The translations under genes and the position numbers were made by a program. The notes beneath the pieces are model-generated. The model saw nothing but the letters and a program-made list of their open reading frames with translations. It was not told where the DNA came from and did no database searches. 64,000 nt of DNA from a phage: the sequence record NC_100371.1; one strand, given 5' to 3'. Of this stretch, positions 14,185-21,976 are shown in pieces (the first letter of the stretch is position 1; the number at the start of each line of letters is the position of its first letter).

Positions 14185-14261
14185 TGGTCTCCACGGAGTG
14201 ATTCGAACACTCGACCTCCTGATCCCAAATCAGGCGCTCTACCAAGCTGAGCTACGCGGAG
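14185..14261 (-). tRNA. tRNA-Pro (anticodon UGG)
   Basis: Cloverleaf by eye: acceptor CTCCGCG/CGTGGAG (C1-G72 typical of Pro), anticodon loop TTTGGGA, T-loop GTTCGAATC, CCA encoded. Confidence 0.75.
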
Positions 14262-14272
14262 TATTTATTATT

Positions 14273-14347
14273 TGGTGGCCCTGGGTGGAATTGAACCACC
14301 GTCTGGCGATTATGAGTCGCTTGCTTGAACCTTCCAGCTACAGGGCC
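14273..14347 (-). tRNA. tRNA-Met (anticodon CAU; initiator/elongator/Ile-lysidine not distinguished)
   Basis: acceptor GGCCCTG/CAGGGCC, anticodon loop CTCATAA, T-loop GGTTCAATTCC, CCA encoded. Confidence 0.75.
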
Positions 14348-14348
14348 A

Positions 14349-14424
14349 TGGTGCTGATGGCAGGACTTGAACCTGCAACCTATTGATTACAAATCAATTG
14401 CACTGCCAATTGTGCTACATCAGC
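14349..14424 (-). tRNA. tRNA-Thr (anticodon UGU)
   Basis: acceptor GCTGATG/CATCAGC, anticodon arm ATTGA-TTTGTAA-TCAAT, T-arm GCAGG-TTCAAGT-CCTGC, CCA encoded. Confidence 0.75.
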
Positions 14425-14428
14425 AAAA

Positions 14429-14527
14429 GGTGCTAGGTGATGGAATCGAACCATCTATGTATTCAACGACTACCTCGTCTATTTTCAGGATTAAAAATCC
14501 TCGCCCTTGCCAAAGGGCTTACCTAGC
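14429..14527 (-). tRNA. atypical tRNA-like gene (99 nt; anticodon loop reads UUU; possibly degenerate or insert-containing)
   Basis: perfect acceptor GCTAGGT/ACCTAGC, D-arm GCCC-TTTGGCAA-GGGC, canonical T-arm GATGG-TTCGATT-CCATC, but about 30 nt between anticodon arm and T-arm. Confidence 0.4.
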
Positions 14528-14625
14528 TCAGCATGTTGACCATGTTGCTAGTCGGCGATGACGACTGTAACATTTGATAATCCGGTTCTGCTTCCGGCTT
14601 TCGCTTAATTACAAGGTCAACAATA

Positions 14626-14716
14626 TGGCAGAGGATAATGGAATCGAACCATCATCGAGTCATCCTCAACGGGACGGTTTTCAAGACCGCTTGAGCACCA
14701 TTGCTCCCTACCCTCT
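14626..14716 (-). tRNA. tRNA-Ser (anticodon UGA), type II
   Basis: acceptor AGAGGGT/ATCCTCT, anticodon arm GCGGT-CTTGAAA-ACCGT, long variable arm TTGAG-GATGA-CTCGA, T-loop GGTTCGATTCC, CCA encoded. Confidence 0.7.
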
Positions 14717-14830
14717 TTTATAAACAATACTGATAATGACACTGATTTTCGAGCAGTTAGTGACTAGTATAAACGACGATAAATATCAATGCCATTATCT
14801 GTATGATTTATGCATTTAAAAATATAAATT

Positions 14831-14918
14831 TGGTGGTGAGTGATGGAGTCGAACCACCCGAATCGCAATGATAACAGATTTACAGTCTGCCCCGCTACCC
14901 CTACGGAATTAACTCACC
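14831..14918 (-). tRNA. tRNA-Tyr (anticodon GUA), type II
   Basis: acceptor GGTGAGT/ACTCACC, anticodon arm GCAGA-CTGTAAA-TCTGT, long variable arm, T-loop TTCGACT, CCA encoded. Confidence 0.7.
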
Positions 14919-15048
14919 TAAATACTAATATTTAAATTCTTTTTAAAATAGCTAGTGTTCTAACCACTAACTATGAGGTATCGGTAAAGTGGTTACCGCC
15001 ACTTGCCGAAGATTTACTCTGCTAAAGTAAGCTACATTAAAAAGAACT

Positions 15049-15123
15049 TGGCACCCCGTACTGGACTCGAACCAGTGTCAACGGCTTAGAAGGCCGCTGC
15101 TTTATCCACTAAGCTAACAGGGC
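15049..15123 (-). tRNA. tRNA-Arg (anticodon UCU)
   Basis: acceptor GCCCTGT/ACGGGGT, anticodon arm GCGGC-CTTCTAA-GCCGT, T-arm ACTGG-TTCGAGT-CCAGT, CCA encoded. Confidence 0.7.
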
Positions 15124-15219
15124 ACTGGGTGGCTTTCTTTTACACCTGAGCCGCCAGAAAAGGTGGGAGACCATGTTTATAATATTACACTGTTAGGCAA
15201 AGTTTGTCAAGAAAATATT

Positions 15220-21198: not shown

Positions 21199-21912
21199 AT
21201 GCTGAATACCAAATTAATTGACAACCTGGAAAAACTGTCCCAGCCTGAAAACTACCTTTGGTCTGCCAACTGGGTGGAAAACTGGAACCGTGTAGCAGCT
21301 AAAGTGAAAAAATCATACACACCATTCGAACTTCAGCTGAGTTTCATTGAGGAAGAGTTCAATGAGGTTTTGGAAGAGTTGGAGAAAGGTGATGGTGGGG
21401 ATCATCTCCTAAAAGAGGCCTGCGATCTTCATGTTGTCACAAGTTATGCCGCTTATCTTGTTAACGATAACCATGAAAAGTGGTCAAACCTGTTTGATAA
21501 TCCGCGAGGTCTTAAGTTTAAGATCGGTGAATTTTATGATACACTGATCGCTGCGAAAAATACCTCTAAGCAAAGAGCGTCTGCTTACCGCTTAGCAGAG
21601 TTGTCAACAGCTTTGCTGTTCCAGCTTCGCGGTGATGTGTGCGGGATGATGCGGAAGGTTCTAAAATCTAATGACAGCAAGTTTGCACGCGTCAACCATC
21701 TGCGGTATTCACACGGTGCCAGTGCAGATATGCCTGCTGAACAACTCATCGAGTTGGAGATTAAAGATCTTGAGCGACGCTTTGATGGTCGCTATGAAGG
21801 TTTTGTTGCTAAAGAAGAATTCTACAACGGAAATAAAGTTATCATATTCCTTGACAGTAAAGGTAAGATTATGAAGCCTTCAAGCTTCAAAGATGTAACA
21901 GAATATATTTAA
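21199..21912 (+). CDS. MazG-like nucleoside triphosphate pyrophosphohydrolase
   Basis: All-alpha NTP-PPase style acidic motif EEEFNEVLEELEKGD...EACDLHVV. Confidence 0.5.
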   Translation: MLNTKLIDNLEKLSQPENYLWSANWVENWNRVAAKVKKSYTPFELQLSFIEEEFNEVLEELEKGDGGDHLLKEACDLHVVTSYAAYLVNDNHEKWSNLFDNPRGLKFKIGEFYDTLIAAKNTSKQRASAYRLAELSTALLFQLRGDVCGMMRKVLKSNDSKFARVNHLRYSHGASADMPAEQLIELEIKDLERRFDGRYEGFVAKEEFYNGNKVIIFLDSKGKIMKPSSFKDVTEYI

Positions 21913-21976
21913 TAACATAGCCGGGGCGATCCCGGCTTTACTTGTTTCGGAAAGTATGCAAGTGAGGTAGAAAGTT

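What the first reader, a model, noticed from the sequence alone, without database searches (positions are those of the whole stretch)
14185..15123. Seven-gene tRNA cluster including an atypical 99-nt tRNA-like gene
Six canonical tRNAs (Pro-UGG, Met-CAU, Thr-UGU, Ser-UGA, Tyr-GUA, Arg-UCU) all encode CCA and sit head-to-tail on the minus strand. A seventh element (14429-14527) has a perfect acceptor stem, D-arm and canonical T-arm, but about 30 nt lie between the anticodon arm (loop TTTTTAA, anticodon UUU) and the T-arm. It may be a tRNA with an insertion, an unusual long-arm tRNA, or a decaying pseudo-tRNA.
Basis: seen in the sequence. Interest (0 to 1): 0.45.

Follow-up and report, generated by a model that had tools for sequence, protein, structure and literature searches.

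The report
Conserved odd tRNA-like phage RNA
The odd 99-base gene is a real, evolutionarily maintained tRNA-shaped RNA with an extra built-in arm; it occurs across a whole subfamily of enterobacterial phages, has not been described in the papers I searched, and probably does something other than ordinary codon reading.

Summary
The window is an rV5-like E. coli phage (Vequintavirus) with seven head-to-tail tRNA-type genes on the minus strand.

It is neither a decaying pseudogene nor a recent insertion. I found 29 distinct homologues in five Vequintavirinae genera, one unrelated N4-like phage and metagenomes. All 20 helix positions pair in every sequence. Ten of 21 pairs tested show compensatory changes, including the tertiary G19:C56 elbow pair.

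The family departs from canonical tRNA:
- A8:U14 replaces U8:A14.
- The anticodon stem is 4 bp, flanked by an invariant G/G.
- The variable region is 31-40 nt: a covarying hairpin between sequence-invariant A-rich linkers.

The "anticodon" loop is the least conserved part (UCC/GCC in 8-nt loops, UCA after A33, UAU, and UUU here). A family model separates members (91-118 bits) from all ordinary tRNAs (27 bits or less).

In this phage the loop and discriminator look like tRNA-Lys(UUU), but the encoded CCA is incomplete. My best reading is a tRNA-processed mimic, not a routine decoder, possibly countering host attack on tRNA-Lys. That function is inferred, not shown. It most resembles allo-tRNAs but fails their defining 8/4 or 9/3 geometry.

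The parts
15182..15210 (-). Sigma-70-type promoter-like site (TTGACA-17-TAATAT) upstream of the cluster; likely start of the polycistronic tRNA transcript
   Evidence: 10 of 12 matches. Annotated as a sigma70-type promoter in phage ECML-10. A consensus match only; function not shown.
15049..15123 (-). tRNA-Arg(UCU), CCA encoded
   Evidence: Rfam 67.8 bits
14831..14918 (-). tRNA-Tyr(GUA), long-arm class II tRNA, CCA encoded
   Evidence: Rfam 39 bits at 14834-14918. Missed by ARAGORN in this window but called in phage ime.
14626..14716 (-). tRNA-Ser(UGA), long-arm class II tRNA, CCA encoded
   Evidence: The Rfam tRNA model misses it; it scores 39.4 bits on tRNA-Sec, below the gathering score.
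14429..14527 (-). The atypical tRNA-like RNA (whole element; 100 nt if the U at 14428 is counted)
   Evidence: Family model R1 gives 105.1 bits.
14521..14527 (-). Acceptor stem 5' strand GCUAGGU; pairs with 14432-14438
   Evidence: All 7 pairs are standard in 29 of 29 sequences. Positions 3, 4, 5 and 6 change on both sides.
14503..14520 (-). A8 A9 plus the D-arm GCCC-UUUGGCAA-GGGC. It can extend to 6 bp with a 4-nt loop. A8 and U14 are invariant, in place of the canonical U8 and A14.
   Evidence: Three of the four D-stem pairs change on both sides.
14487..14502 (-). G26 plus the 'anticodon' arm AGGA-UUUUUAA-UCCU; the UUU triplet is at 14493-14495
   Evidence: The stem covaries. The loop is hypervariable across the family. 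Positions 30-40 match E. coli tRNA-Lys at 10 of 11 bases.
14480..14486 (-). 5' linker GAAAAUA, single-stranded, A-rich and sequence-conserved
14465..14479 (-). Extra hairpin GACGA-GGUAG-UCGUU inside the variable region
   Evidence: A hairpin is present at this site in all members, with at least 9 different stem sequences. A-U changes to G-C at pair 53:59 within the closest clade.
14456..14464 (-). 3' linker GAAUACAUA; AAUACAUA is invariant in all 29 sequences
   Evidence: Later members were found with a pattern containing this motif, but the BLAST-found members have it as well.
14439..14455 (-). Canonical T-arm GAUGG-UUCGAUU-CCAUC
   Evidence: C56 covaries with D-loop G19 (G:C in 20 sequences, U:A in 9).
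14429..14438 (-). Acceptor 3' strand ACCUAGC, discriminator A (14431), then CC (14429-14430); the next base is U, so the CCA is incomplete
14349..14424 (-). tRNA-Thr(UGU), CCA encoded; starts 4 nt after the odd element
   Evidence: 77.1 bits
14273..14347 (-). CAU-anticodon tRNA called Met; probably tRNA-Ile2 (AUA reader)
   Evidence: Best E. coli matches are genes annotated tRNA-Ile, 81.6% over the full length.
14185..14261 (-). tRNA-Pro(UGG), CCA encoded

Best explanation
WHAT IT IS (shown). The element belongs to a conserved, undescribed family of tRNA-shaped RNAs carried in the tRNA gene clusters of Vequintavirinae phages. It has a 7-bp acceptor stem, a 5-bp T stem and a tRNA elbow. It also has a non-canonical core: A8:U14, U15:A48, and a 4-bp anticodon stem flanked by G/G. 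A fifth arm, a hairpin held between two sequence-invariant A-rich linkers, takes the place of the variable loop.

HOW IT IS MADE (inferred from general tRNA biology). It is transcribed with the neighbouring tRNAs from the sigma-70-type promoter at 15210-15182. RNase P cuts its 5' end. RNase P cleavage of the downstream tRNA-Thr leaves the trailer ...ACCUUUU, which exonucleases trim. The host CCA-adding enzyme completes the end to ACCA. The result would be a stable L-shaped RNA of about 100 nt.

WHAT IT DOES (inferred; my committed guess). It is not a routine decoder. It acts as a tRNA mimic that engages host proteins which recognise tRNA shape. The scaffold (elbow, acceptor end, extra arm) provides the binding. 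The anticodon-like arm is the evolvable specificity element. In this E. coli phage that arm plus discriminator A73 imitate tRNA-Lys(UUU), the tRNA attacked by E. coli defence nucleases (PrrC, RloC, PARIS AriB, Schlafen). The RNA would therefore act as a poorly cleavable competitor or surrogate for tRNA-Lys.

Confidence that it is a functional tRNA-like RNA family is about 0.9. Confidence in the non-decoding mimic mechanism is about 0.4.
For: Structure under selection:
- All 420 cells of 21 pairs are standard pairs, against 34-46% when partners are slid. Ten pairs have compensatory changes. The covariation score is 0.464 against 0.160 for shuffles, reached by 0 of 500 shuffles.
- The same holds on 29 sequences, including the tertiary pair G19:C56 changing to U19:A56.
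- All stem substitutions within the window's own clade preserve pairing.

A distinct family:
- Model R1 scores members at 91-118 bits and every ordinary tRNA at 27 bits or less, with one copy per genome.
- Conservation between genera equals or exceeds that of the adjacent genuine tRNAs.

Against routine decoding (unless noted):
- 13 of 29 members have 8-nt loops (or 6-nt loops with an extra pair).
- 7 of 29 have A33 in place of the universal U33.
- The loop triplets are UCC, GCC, UCA, UAU and UUU on a single scaffold.
- Phages with the UCC type already carry a canonical tRNA-Gly(UCC) in the same cluster.
- The discriminator differs (U or C) between otherwise identical copies.
- The best-conserved sequence is the linkers, not the anticodon loop.
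- This copy lacks a full CCA, while all six neighbouring tRNAs encode it.

Works with host factors: gene-sized transfer into an unrelated Schitoviridae phage.

Lys-like arm: positions 30-40 match E. coli tRNA-Lys at 10 of 11 bases, but 41-43 differ, next to the AriB cut site between 40 and 41.

Precedents:
- Allo-tRNA-UAU species form five-stem junctions, are inactive in translation, and were suggested to be regulatory.
- Phage tRNAs counteract tRNA-targeting defences.
Against: - No expression, processing, aminoacylation or phenotype data exist for any member. The function is inference.
- The loops keep tRNA-like features: a pyrimidine at position 32, A37, and U or G at the position corresponding to 34 (U in 28 of 29 sequences). 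All four U-starting triplets would read A-ending codons, which is typical of phage tRNAs.
- Some identity-like combinations co-vary: U73 with G1-C72, C2-G71 and C35C36, the E. coli tRNA-Gly identity set as I recall it; and A73 with UUU for Lys. That pattern is what a real, chargeable tRNA would show.
- In this phage the loop is a normal 7 nt with U33, and there is no other tRNA-Lys gene in the window.
- tRNAs with hairpins engineered into the variable arm can still be translationally active, according to the abstract of Mukai 2020 seen.
- A stoichiometric decoy is a weak strategy against a multiple-turnover nuclease.
- For the UCC and UCA loop types no matching defence nuclease is known.
Confidence: 0.4

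Rival explanations
1. It is a genuine decoding tRNA-Lys(UUU) with an expanded variable arm. LysRS charges it, and it reads AAA/AAG. Its role is either to top up supply for an AT-rich phage or to serve as a nuclease-resistant spare when host tRNA-Lys is cut, as T5 tRNA-Lys does against PARIS.
For: - The loop is a 7-nt UUUUUAA with U33, A37 and A38, plus discriminator A73. From memory, LysRS identity is the anticodon plus A73.
- A73 and UUU are constant in all 6 distinct Vequintavirus copies.
- Several depositors annotate it tRNA-Lys.
- No other tRNA-Lys gene is in the window.
- The anticodon stem differs from host tRNA-Lys at 41-43, beside the AriB cleavage site.
- The T-arm and elbow are canonical.
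Against: - The anticodon stem is only 4 bp plus a G/G. A8:U14 is non-canonical. The variable region is 31 nt.
- Orthologues in other genera have 8-nt loops or A33, which argues that the conserved function is not decoding.
- The sister genus Avunavirus has UAU with U73 or C73 and no CCA, so identity is not held.
- Its CCA is incomplete, unlike all six neighbouring tRNAs.
- ARAGORN cannot assign it, and the Rfam score is low at 37.5 bits.
Confidence: 0.3
2. It is a recoding tRNA, charged independently of its anticodon, for example by SerRS through the long arm as in allo-tRNAs. Depending on lineage it would cause missense insertion, opal suppression (UCA type) or +1 frameshifting (8-nt loops of form N-UCC reading GGA-N).
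For: - One scaffold carries many 'anticodons', which is the allo-tRNA pattern. Allo-tRNAs inserted Ser, Ala and Cys at stop and sense codons in E. coli.
- It has a long variable arm and U73 in most members. Mukai et al. treat G73 or U73 plus a long arm as Ser identity.
- From memory, 8-nt loops are the hallmark of frameshift-suppressor tRNAs.
- UCA-type members score best on the tRNA-Sec model.
Against: - The hairpin is separated from the core by linkers of 7 and 9 nt, so its orientation is unlike Ser, Leu or Tyr arms.
- A33 occurs in all UCA-type members.
- General mistranslation would also damage phage proteins.
- No recoding is known in these phages. I did not test for GGA-N frameshift sites or in-frame UGA codons.
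Confidence: 0.1
3. It is a decaying pseudo-tRNA or a tRNA recently disrupted by an insertion, with no function.
For: - It lacks a full CCA. The discriminator and 3' tail vary within the Vequintavirus/Avunavirus clade.
- Phage V18 has lost it by deletion.
- Many depositors do not annotate it, and the rV5 paper lists only six tRNAs.
Against: - Pairing is 100% in 29 distinct sequences, with compensatory changes in every helix and in the tertiary 19:56 pair.
- Compensatory changes occur even within the closest clade, including in the extra hairpin.
- The linkers are invariant across genera.
- It was transferred intact into another phage family.
- No 'uninserted' version exists.
Confidence: 0.03
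4. Its role lies in cis rather than as a free RNA. It could be a processing or spacing module that helps RNase P and RNase E mature the neighbouring tRNAs, or a DNA-level site such as a promoter, a protein-binding site or a homing-endonuclease target.
For: - It always sits inside tRNA clusters, directly abutting a tRNA.
- The other spacers in this cluster are also strongly structured.
- The linkers are conserved as sequence, not as pairs.
Against: - Its neighbours differ between genera. It lies before Thr here, and after Thr, Ile or Ser in other genera.
- It moved alone into a Schitoviridae cluster.
- G-U pairs and the tertiary 19:56 covariation show selection on the folded RNA of this strand.
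- An encoded CCA in 20 of 29 members points to a free tRNA-like 3' end.
Confidence: 0.07

Closest known systems
Allo-tRNAs (Mukai et al. 2017, PMC5389517), especially the allo-tRNA-UAU group
   Same: - tRNA-Sec-like D-arm (a long stem with a tetraloop is possible here: 6 bp plus UGGC).
- Long variable arm.
- U73 in most members.
- Many different anticodons on one conserved scaffold.
- Five-stem junctions.
- Some groups are inactive in translation and were suggested to be regulatory RNAs.
   Different: - Allo-tRNAs are defined by an 8/4 or 9/3 acceptor/T arrangement. This family is 7/5, with covariation supporting both stems.
- The long invariant A-rich linkers around the hairpin, the A8:U14 swap, the 4-bp anticodon stem and the 8-nt or A33 loops are not described for allo-tRNAs in the sections I read.
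- Allo-tRNAs were reported from Clostridia, Proteobacteria and Acidobacteria. This family is found only in lytic enterobacterial phages.
tRNA-Sec (Rfam RF01852)
   Same: The 6-bp/4-nt D-arm, the long variable arm and, in the UCA-type members, an xUCAAA loop. Those members score best on this model, at 39-40 bits.
   Different: - Scores are below the gathering score of 47.
- The acceptor/T arrangement is 7/5, not 8/5 or 9/4; mismatches are flagged.
- The discriminator is U73, or A73 here, not G73.
- The window copy has UUU and scores better as plain tRNA.
Class II long-arm tRNAs (Ser, Leu, Tyr)
   Same: An extra stem-loop between the anticodon arm and the T-arm, with a 7/5 acceptor/T arrangement.
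   Different: - The variable region is 31-40 nt, with 7-9 unpaired nt on each side of the hairpin. From memory, class II arms are roughly 10-20 nt and emerge directly from the core.
- The phages' own Ser, Leu and Tyr tRNAs score only 18-27 bits on the family model.
Phage T4 stable RNAs species 1 and 2 (rnaC, rnaD)
   Same: Small stable RNAs encoded in a phage tRNA cluster. rnaC has a canonical T-arm, paired termini and large internal insertions. From memory, their function is still unknown.
   Different: No homology: the family model finds nothing at rnaC or rnaD. They differ in size (139 and 119 nt) and architecture.
Nuclease-resistant phage tRNAs, e.g. T5 tRNA-Lys against PARIS (Burman et al. 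2024, PMC11464382; van den Berg et al. 2023, PMC10264068)
   Same: A phage-encoded molecule with a tRNA-Lys(UUU)-type loop whose anticodon stem differs from the host tRNA next to the AriB cleavage site.
   Different: [quoted passage not shown] This RNA has a non-canonical core and a fifth arm.
- Its orthologues carry loops that are not Lys-like and often not anticodon-like.
- No resistance or rescue has been tested.
Bacillus cereus tRNA-Other (tRNA-like small RNA charged by LysRS1/LysRS2; cited)
   Same: A tRNA-like small RNA outside the normal decoding set that prediction tools label 'Other', as some depositors label this element.
   Different: It is known to me only through the citation. It is a bacterial chromosomal gene, and I made no sequence or structure comparison.

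Membership tests
Canonical decoding tRNA (Rfam RF00005) | Cloverleaf with a 7-bp acceptor stem and a 5-bp T stem | tested here: met
   All 12 pairs are standard in 29 of 29 sequences, with compensatory changes in both stems.
Canonical decoding tRNA (Rfam RF00005) | L-shape elbow: T-loop UUCRAnn with G18:U55 and G19:C56 | tested here: met
   The T-loop is UUCGAUU. The 19:56 pair is G:C in 20 sequences and U:A in 9, a compensatory change.
Canonical decoding tRNA (Rfam RF00005) | Conserved core nucleotides U8 and A14 | tested here: not met
   A8 and U14 are invariant in 29 of 29, and U15 with A48 likewise.
Canonical decoding tRNA (Rfam RF00005) | 5-bp anticodon stem and 7-nt loop with U33 and a purine at 37 | tested here: inconclusive
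   The window copy has a 4-bp stem flanked by G/G and a 7-nt loop with U33 and A37. It could equally be 5-6 bp with a 5- or 3-nt loop. Across the family, 13 of 29 have 8-nt loops and 7 of 29 have A33.
Canonical decoding tRNA (Rfam RF00005) | Variable region of 4-5 nt, or a compact long arm | tested here: not met
   31 nt here and 39-40 nt in other genera, with single-stranded linkers of 7-9 nt on each side.
Canonical decoding tRNA (Rfam RF00005) | Score at or above the curated Rfam threshold | tested here: met
   37.5 bits against 29 for the window copy. However, the Seunavirus, Mydovirus and Avunavirus copies are not detected at E below 0.01, and UCA-type copies score best as tRNA-Sec.
Canonical decoding tRNA (Rfam RF00005) | Aminoacylation and codon reading on the ribosome | not testable with these tools
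   No experimental data found.
Allo-tRNA (Mukai et al. 2017) | 8/4 or 9/3 acceptor/T-stem composition | tested here: not met
   7/5, with covariation in both stems.
Allo-tRNA (Mukai et al. 2017) | tRNA-Sec-like D-arm (long stem, tetraloop) | tested here: inconclusive
   A 6-bp stem with a 4-nt loop is predicted in all 20 folds. The two extra U-A pairs never vary, so covariation cannot confirm them.
Allo-tRNA (Mukai et al. 2017) | Long variable arm and a G73 or U73 discriminator | tested here: inconclusive
   Long arm: yes. U73 in 20 of 29 sequences, C73 in 3, A73 in 6. The window copy has A73.
Allo-tRNA (Mukai et al. 2017) | Diverse anticodons on one scaffold | tested here: met
   UCC, GCC, UCA, UAU and UUU.
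tRNA-Sec (Rfam RF01852) | 13-bp acceptor/T branch (8/5 or 9/4), UCA anticodon, G73, score at or above 47 bits | tested here: not met
   The branch is 7/5. The window copy has UUU and A73. The best family members reach 39-40 bits, with mismatches at the extended acceptor pairs.
T4 rnaC/rnaD stable RNAs | Sequence and structure homology to T4 species 1 or 2 RNA | tested here: not met
   Model R1 gives no hit on T4 70908-71171 (L053 1909-2172). Only T4 tRNA-Thr and tRNA-Leu appear, at 23-26 bits.
Nuclease-resistant phage tRNA-Lys (T5 type) | Lys anticodon loop and discriminator, with anticodon-stem differences from host tRNA-Lys at the nuclease site | tested here: met
   UUUUUAA loop and A73. Positions 30-40 are 10 of 11 identical to E. 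coli tRNA-Lys, and 41-43 differ. The AriB site is between 40 and 41.
Nuclease-resistant phage tRNA-Lys (T5 type) | Escapes cleavage and rescues infection under PARIS or PrrC | not testable with these tools
   Requires experiments.

The most novel reading that the evidence does not exclude
This is a new class of phage-encoded 'programmable' tRNA mimic. A fixed non-canonical scaffold (elbow, CCA end, conserved fifth arm) docks onto host tRNA-handling or tRNA-attacking proteins. The anticodon-like arm is swapped between lineages: Lys-like in coliphages, Gly-like in Salmonella and Klebsiella phages, UCA in Erwinia and Salmonella phages. Each version would neutralise a different tRNA-targeting defence. 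Alternatively, the 8-nt-loop and UCA forms are natural frameshifting or opal-suppressing tRNAs used for programmed recoding.
Probability: 0.25. Interest if true: 0.8.

Novelty: new variant of a known kind. Interest (0 to 1): 0.55.

Why it matters
- About 190 sequenced phage genomes carry this gene, many of them candidates for therapy or biocontrol. It is annotated as nothing, as tRNA-Lys, tRNA-OTHER, tRNA-TERM or tRNA-???, or even as a hypothetical protein. A defined family with its own model would fix that.
- Biologically, it is a strongly constrained tRNA-shaped RNA whose most variable part is the anticodon loop and whose most conserved part is an extra arm. That is the reverse of a normal tRNA and suggests a non-decoding job.
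- Host tRNA-Lys(UUU) is targeted by several E. coli defence systems, and phage tRNAs are now known counter-measures. A Lys-like mimic on an unusual scaffold is therefore a directly testable anti-defence candidate, using available BASEL phages.
- It also extends the catalogue of natural non-canonical tRNA architectures, which is of interest for tRNA engineering.

Tried and rejected
1. ARAGORN's fold (A/U stem, 4-base anticodon AUCC). Only 40% of cells pair across the family, the same as shuffled and slid controls. Rejected.
2. Pattern hits L008, L012, L014, L033 and L047. They have no acceptor stem or tRNA features and are chance matches.
3. Host or prophage origin. There is no hit in 5,426 E. 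coli genomes. Only a chance hit appeared in 185,579 species-representative genomes.
4. Homology to T4 rnaC or rnaD. None found.
5. A normal-length paralogue, or an 'empty site' lacking the insertion. None found: all non-family hits are ordinary tRNAs at 27 bits or less.
6. Kissing interaction between the anticodon-like loop and the extra hairpin loop (UCCA with UGGA, and GCCA with UGGC in L011). 4-nt matches arise in 30-49% of shuffles, and there is no match in the window copy or most type C copies. Not supported.
7. Watson-Crick pairing between the two linkers. Only the Henunavirus-type copies can pair AUGU with ACAU. Not general.
8. Coding potential. Only short spurious ORFs cross the cluster.
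9. D-arm as an intrinsic terminator. It is flagged by the consensus scan, but the U-run lies 5 nt after the stem and exists only in this lineage. Unlikely.
10. Literature searches for a description of this element in rV5, PVP-SE1, Vequintavirinae, phage tRNA-like or anti-defence papers. Nothing found.
11. Not done: I did not check whether these phages encode RNA ligase or polynucleotide kinase. The rV5 paper text has no such terms.
Full report
OBSERVATION

ARAGORN finds five ordinary tRNA genes on the minus strand between 14185 and 15123, plus an unassigned 99-nt 'tRNA-???' at 14429-14527. Rfam adds tRNA-Tyr at 14834-14918 and scores the odd element as tRNA at 37.5 bits against a gathering score of 29. 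The sequence shows that Pro, 'Met', Thr, Ser, Tyr and Arg all encode CCA.

The odd element reads as follows:
- GCUAGGU, acceptor 5' strand
- AA
- GCCC-UUUGGCAA-GGGC, D-arm
- G
- AGGA-UUUUUAA-UCCU, anticodon-like arm
- GAAAAUA, 5' linker
- GACGA-GGUAG-UCGUU, extra hairpin
- GAAUACAUA, 3' linker
- GAUGG-UUCGAUU-CCAUC, T-arm
- ACCUAGC, acceptor 3' strand
- A, then CC, then U

Its minimum-free-energy fold is exactly this five-arm structure (-34.8 kcal/mol, z = -4.0).

CONTEXT

The window is an rV5-like E. coli myovirus, 99.7% identical to Escherichia phage vB_EcoM_10C2_SA_NWU (genus Vequintavirus).
- A sigma-70-type promoter-like site (TTGACA-17-TAATAT) lies at 15210-15182, just upstream of tRNA-Arg.
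- Only spurious short ORFs cross the cluster.
- The rV5 reference paper lists six tRNAs and does not mention this element.
- GenBank depositors label the orthologous sequence as nothing, tRNA-OTHER, tRNA-???(atcc), tRNA-Lys, tRNA-TERM or a hypothetical protein.

A FAMILY, NOT A ONE-OFF

BLAST and motif scans recovered homologues from:
- Vequintavirus, Avunavirus, Seunavirus, Mydovirus and Henunavirus;
- one Schitoviridae phage (Salmonella phage UTK0002);
- metagenomic contigs.

These come, and give 29 distinct sequences. About 190 phage records match.

There is no relative in 5,426 E. coli genomes. Only a chance pattern hit appeared in 185,579 representative bacterial and archaeal genomes.

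A covariance model built from 20 members scores family members at 91-118 bits, including L046, which was not used to build it. Every ordinary tRNA, including the long-arm Ser, Leu and Tyr, scores 27 bits or less. There is one copy per genome.

STRUCTURE IS UNDER SELECTION

On the 20-sequence alignment, all 420 cells of 21 proposed pairs are standard pairs, against 34-46% when partners are slid. Ten pairs show changes on both sides. The covariation score is 0.464 against 0.160 for shuffles, and 0 of 500 shuffles reach it.

On all 29 sequences the same holds:
- Acceptor position 3 is C-G, U-A or A-U.
- D-stem position 12 has five pair types.
- The tertiary elbow pair 19:56 is G:C in 20 sequences and U:A in 9. 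That constraint only makes sense for an L-shaped tRNA fold.

The extra hairpin is always present at the same site but has at least nine different stem sequences.

Within the window's own clade (9 distinct Vequintavirus and Avunavirus copies) every stem substitution preserves pairing. Pairs 4:93 and 53:59, the latter in the extra hairpin, are full A-U to G-C swaps.

Between genera the element is 66-74% identical overall and 78-86% in the core. That is at least as conserved as the adjacent tRNA-Thr, Arg and Tyr at 61-76%. A decaying pseudogene is excluded.

HOW IT DIFFERS FROM A tRNA

The following are invariant in all 29 sequences:
- A8 with U14, where canonical tRNAs have U8 with A14.
- U15 with A48.
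- A G on each side of a 4-bp anticodon-like stem.
- The sequence AAUACAUA immediately 5' of the T stem, and an A-rich 5' linker. This was also true of the members found by BLAST, before that motif was used as a search pattern.

The variable region is 31 nt here and 39-40 nt elsewhere, with 7-9 unpaired nucleotides on each side of the hairpin. The D-arm can form 6 bp with a 4-nt loop, as in tRNA-Sec.

ARAGORN's alternative fold with a 4-base anticodon is not conserved.

THE 'ANTICODON' LOOP IS THE VARIABLE PART

Loop sequences across the family:

| Loop | Count | Where |
|---|---|---|
| CCAUCCAG | 10 | Seunavirus, Mydovirus |
| CCAGCCAG, CCCUCCAG, CCUUCCAG | 1 each | Mydovirus (Ro1) and metagenomic/IMG-VR contigs |
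| CAUCAAA or UAUCAAA | 7 | Henunavirus, the Schitoviridae phage, metagenomes |
| UUUAUAA | 3 | Avunavirus |
| UUUUUAA | 6 | Vequintavirus, including this window |

- 13 of 29 have 8-nt loops, or 6-nt loops if the closing C-G forms.
- 7 of 29 have A at position 33, where tRNAs have a near-universal U.
- The closing position is C-G in 13, U-A in 11 and C.A in 5.
- Phages with the UCC type already have a canonical tRNA-Gly(UCC) in the same cluster.
- The discriminator is U in 20 sequences, but it differs (U or C) between otherwise identical copies.
- The encoded CCA is intact in all 20 non-coliphage copies and lost in all 9 Vequintavirus and Avunavirus copies.

On the other side, the loops keep a pyrimidine at 32 and A at 37. 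Some identity-like combinations co-occur: U73, G1-C72, C2-G71 and C35C36, which I recall as the E. coli tRNA-Gly identity set; and A73 with UUU for Lys. Decoding therefore cannot be excluded.

THE WINDOW COPY

- Its anticodon arm matches E. coli tRNA-Lys at 10 of 11 positions from 30 to 40. It differs at 41-43, next to the PARIS AriB cleavage site between 40 and 41.
- It has A73.
- Its 3' end reads ACC followed by UUUU, and then tRNA-Thr begins.
- From general knowledge of E. coli tRNA maturation, RNase P cleavage of tRNA-Thr, 3' exonuclease trimming and the CCA-adding enzyme would generate ACCA.
- All six neighbouring tRNAs encode CCA, so this gene is under a different constraint.

DISPENSABILITY AND MOBILITY

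Phage V18 carries a deletion that fuses the 5' part of tRNA-Tyr to the 3' part of this element. The acceptor strands of the chimera are not complementary, and tRNA-Ser is lost. The element is therefore accessory.

Homology between the Schitoviridae copy and Henunavirus covers only the element itself (1501-1613, 89% identity). It moves as a gene-sized unit and presumably works with host factors rather than lineage-specific phage factors.

COMPARISON WITH KNOWN FAMILIES

- Allo-tRNAs are closest in kind. They share a Sec-like D-arm, a long arm, U73 or G73 and many anticodons on one scaffold. Their UAU group forms five-stem junctions, is inactive in translation and may be regulatory. Allo-tRNAs are defined by 8/4 or 9/3 geometry, however, and this family is 7/5, so it is not a member.
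- tRNA-Sec is the best Rfam model for the UCA-type members, but only at 39-40 bits (gathering score 47), with mismatches at the extended acceptor stem.
- T4 rnaC and rnaD are analogous tRNA-cluster stable RNAs but are not homologous.
- A review of natural non-canonical tRNAs contains no occurrence of the word 'phage', and the passages I read describe no architecture like this one.

MECHANISM

Shown: a conserved, covarying, L-shaped tRNA-like RNA with a fifth arm, inside a tRNA operon that has a promoter-like site.

Inferred: maturation like a tRNA, and interaction with host tRNA-binding proteins.

My committed reading (about 0.4) is a non-decoding tRNA mimic whose anticodon-like arm sets specificity. 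In coliphages it imitates tRNA-Lys(UUU), a frequent target of E. coli defence nucleases.

Rivals:
- A true tRNA-Lys decoder or nuclease-resistant spare (about 0.3).
- An anticodon-independent recoding tRNA (about 0.1).
- A cis-acting processing or DNA-level element (about 0.07).
- A pseudogene (about 0.03).

NOVELTY

The gene's existence is visible in some annotations. The following are not described in any paper I could find:
- the family itself;
- its non-canonical invariants;
- its conserved fifth arm;
- its hypervariable loop;
- its spread across phage genera.

I rate it a new variant of a known kind (non-canonical tRNA or tRNA-like RNA), of moderate to good interest.

Noticed in passing
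Its best E. coli matches are genes annotated tRNA-Ile (81.6% over the full length; 5,336 of 5,426 genomes have a place covering at least 80% of the query). It is probably the lysidine-dependent, AUA-reading tRNA-Ile2.
   Followed up: partly
window 14919-15048 (-): The 130-nt spacer between tRNA-Arg and tRNA-Tyr folds into an 11-bp closing stem (GUUCUUUUUAA/UUAAAAAGAAU) around three hairpins, with MFE -34.5 and z = -4.3. About 125 nt of it is absent from phage ime and many other Vequintavirus genomes, where Tyr and Arg are 5 nt apart. There is no Rfam or ARAGORN hit. It could be a small mobile or tRNA-derived insertion.
   Followed up: partly
window 14717-14833 (-) and 14528-14625 (-): The other two spacers in the cluster are also structured. 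The Tyr-Ser spacer is a long imperfect hairpin (z = -4.6). The Ser-odd spacer has a closing stem UUGUUGACC/GGUCAACAU around three hairpins (z = -2.3). Neither matches any Rfam family.
   Followed up: no
window 14626-14716 and 14831-14918 (-): The two prediction tools disagree on the long-arm tRNAs. The Rfam tRNA model misses tRNA-Ser, which scores 39.4 bits on tRNA-Sec, below threshold. ARAGORN misses tRNA-Tyr in this window although it calls the orthologue in phage ime.
   Followed up: no
L054 (phage V18, KY683736) 851-946: A deletion joins the 5' part of tRNA-Tyr to the 3' 46 nt of the tRNA-like element and removes tRNA-Ser. The result is a chimera whose acceptor strands cannot pair. JES2013 also retains only a 3' fragment.
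   Followed up: partly
phage records MG065644-MG065682: Eighteen records named 'Campylobacter phage' (hosts given as Campylobacter or C. jejuni) are 97-99% identical to this E. coli Vequintavirus region. The host labels look wrong, or the isolates were contaminant coliphages.
   Followed up: no
L004 1579-1698, L022 1486-1687, PP554575 (PMBT16): Several GenBank records place 'hypothetical protein' CDSs over the tRNA-like element. These are spurious calls over a structured RNA gene.
   Followed up: no
window 21857-21945 (+): Weak match to the family model R1 (18.6 bits, rough E about 0.02, G+C 0.38). ARAGORN and Rfam call nothing there. Probably chance.
   Followed up: no
window 14503-14518 (-): The consensus scan flags the D-arm hairpin of the odd element, followed by GAGGAUUUUU, as terminator-like. 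The U-run is the anticodon-like loop and lies 5 nt from the stem. Probably not a terminator.
   Followed up: no
L011 and type B members (Seunavirus and some Mydovirus): GC-rich extra hairpins carry UGGA, complementary to UCCA in the anticodon-like loop. The one member with loop CAGCCA has UGGC in its hairpin loop. This looks compensatory, but 4-nt matches are common in shuffles (30-49%) and absent from other subtypes.
   Followed up: yes
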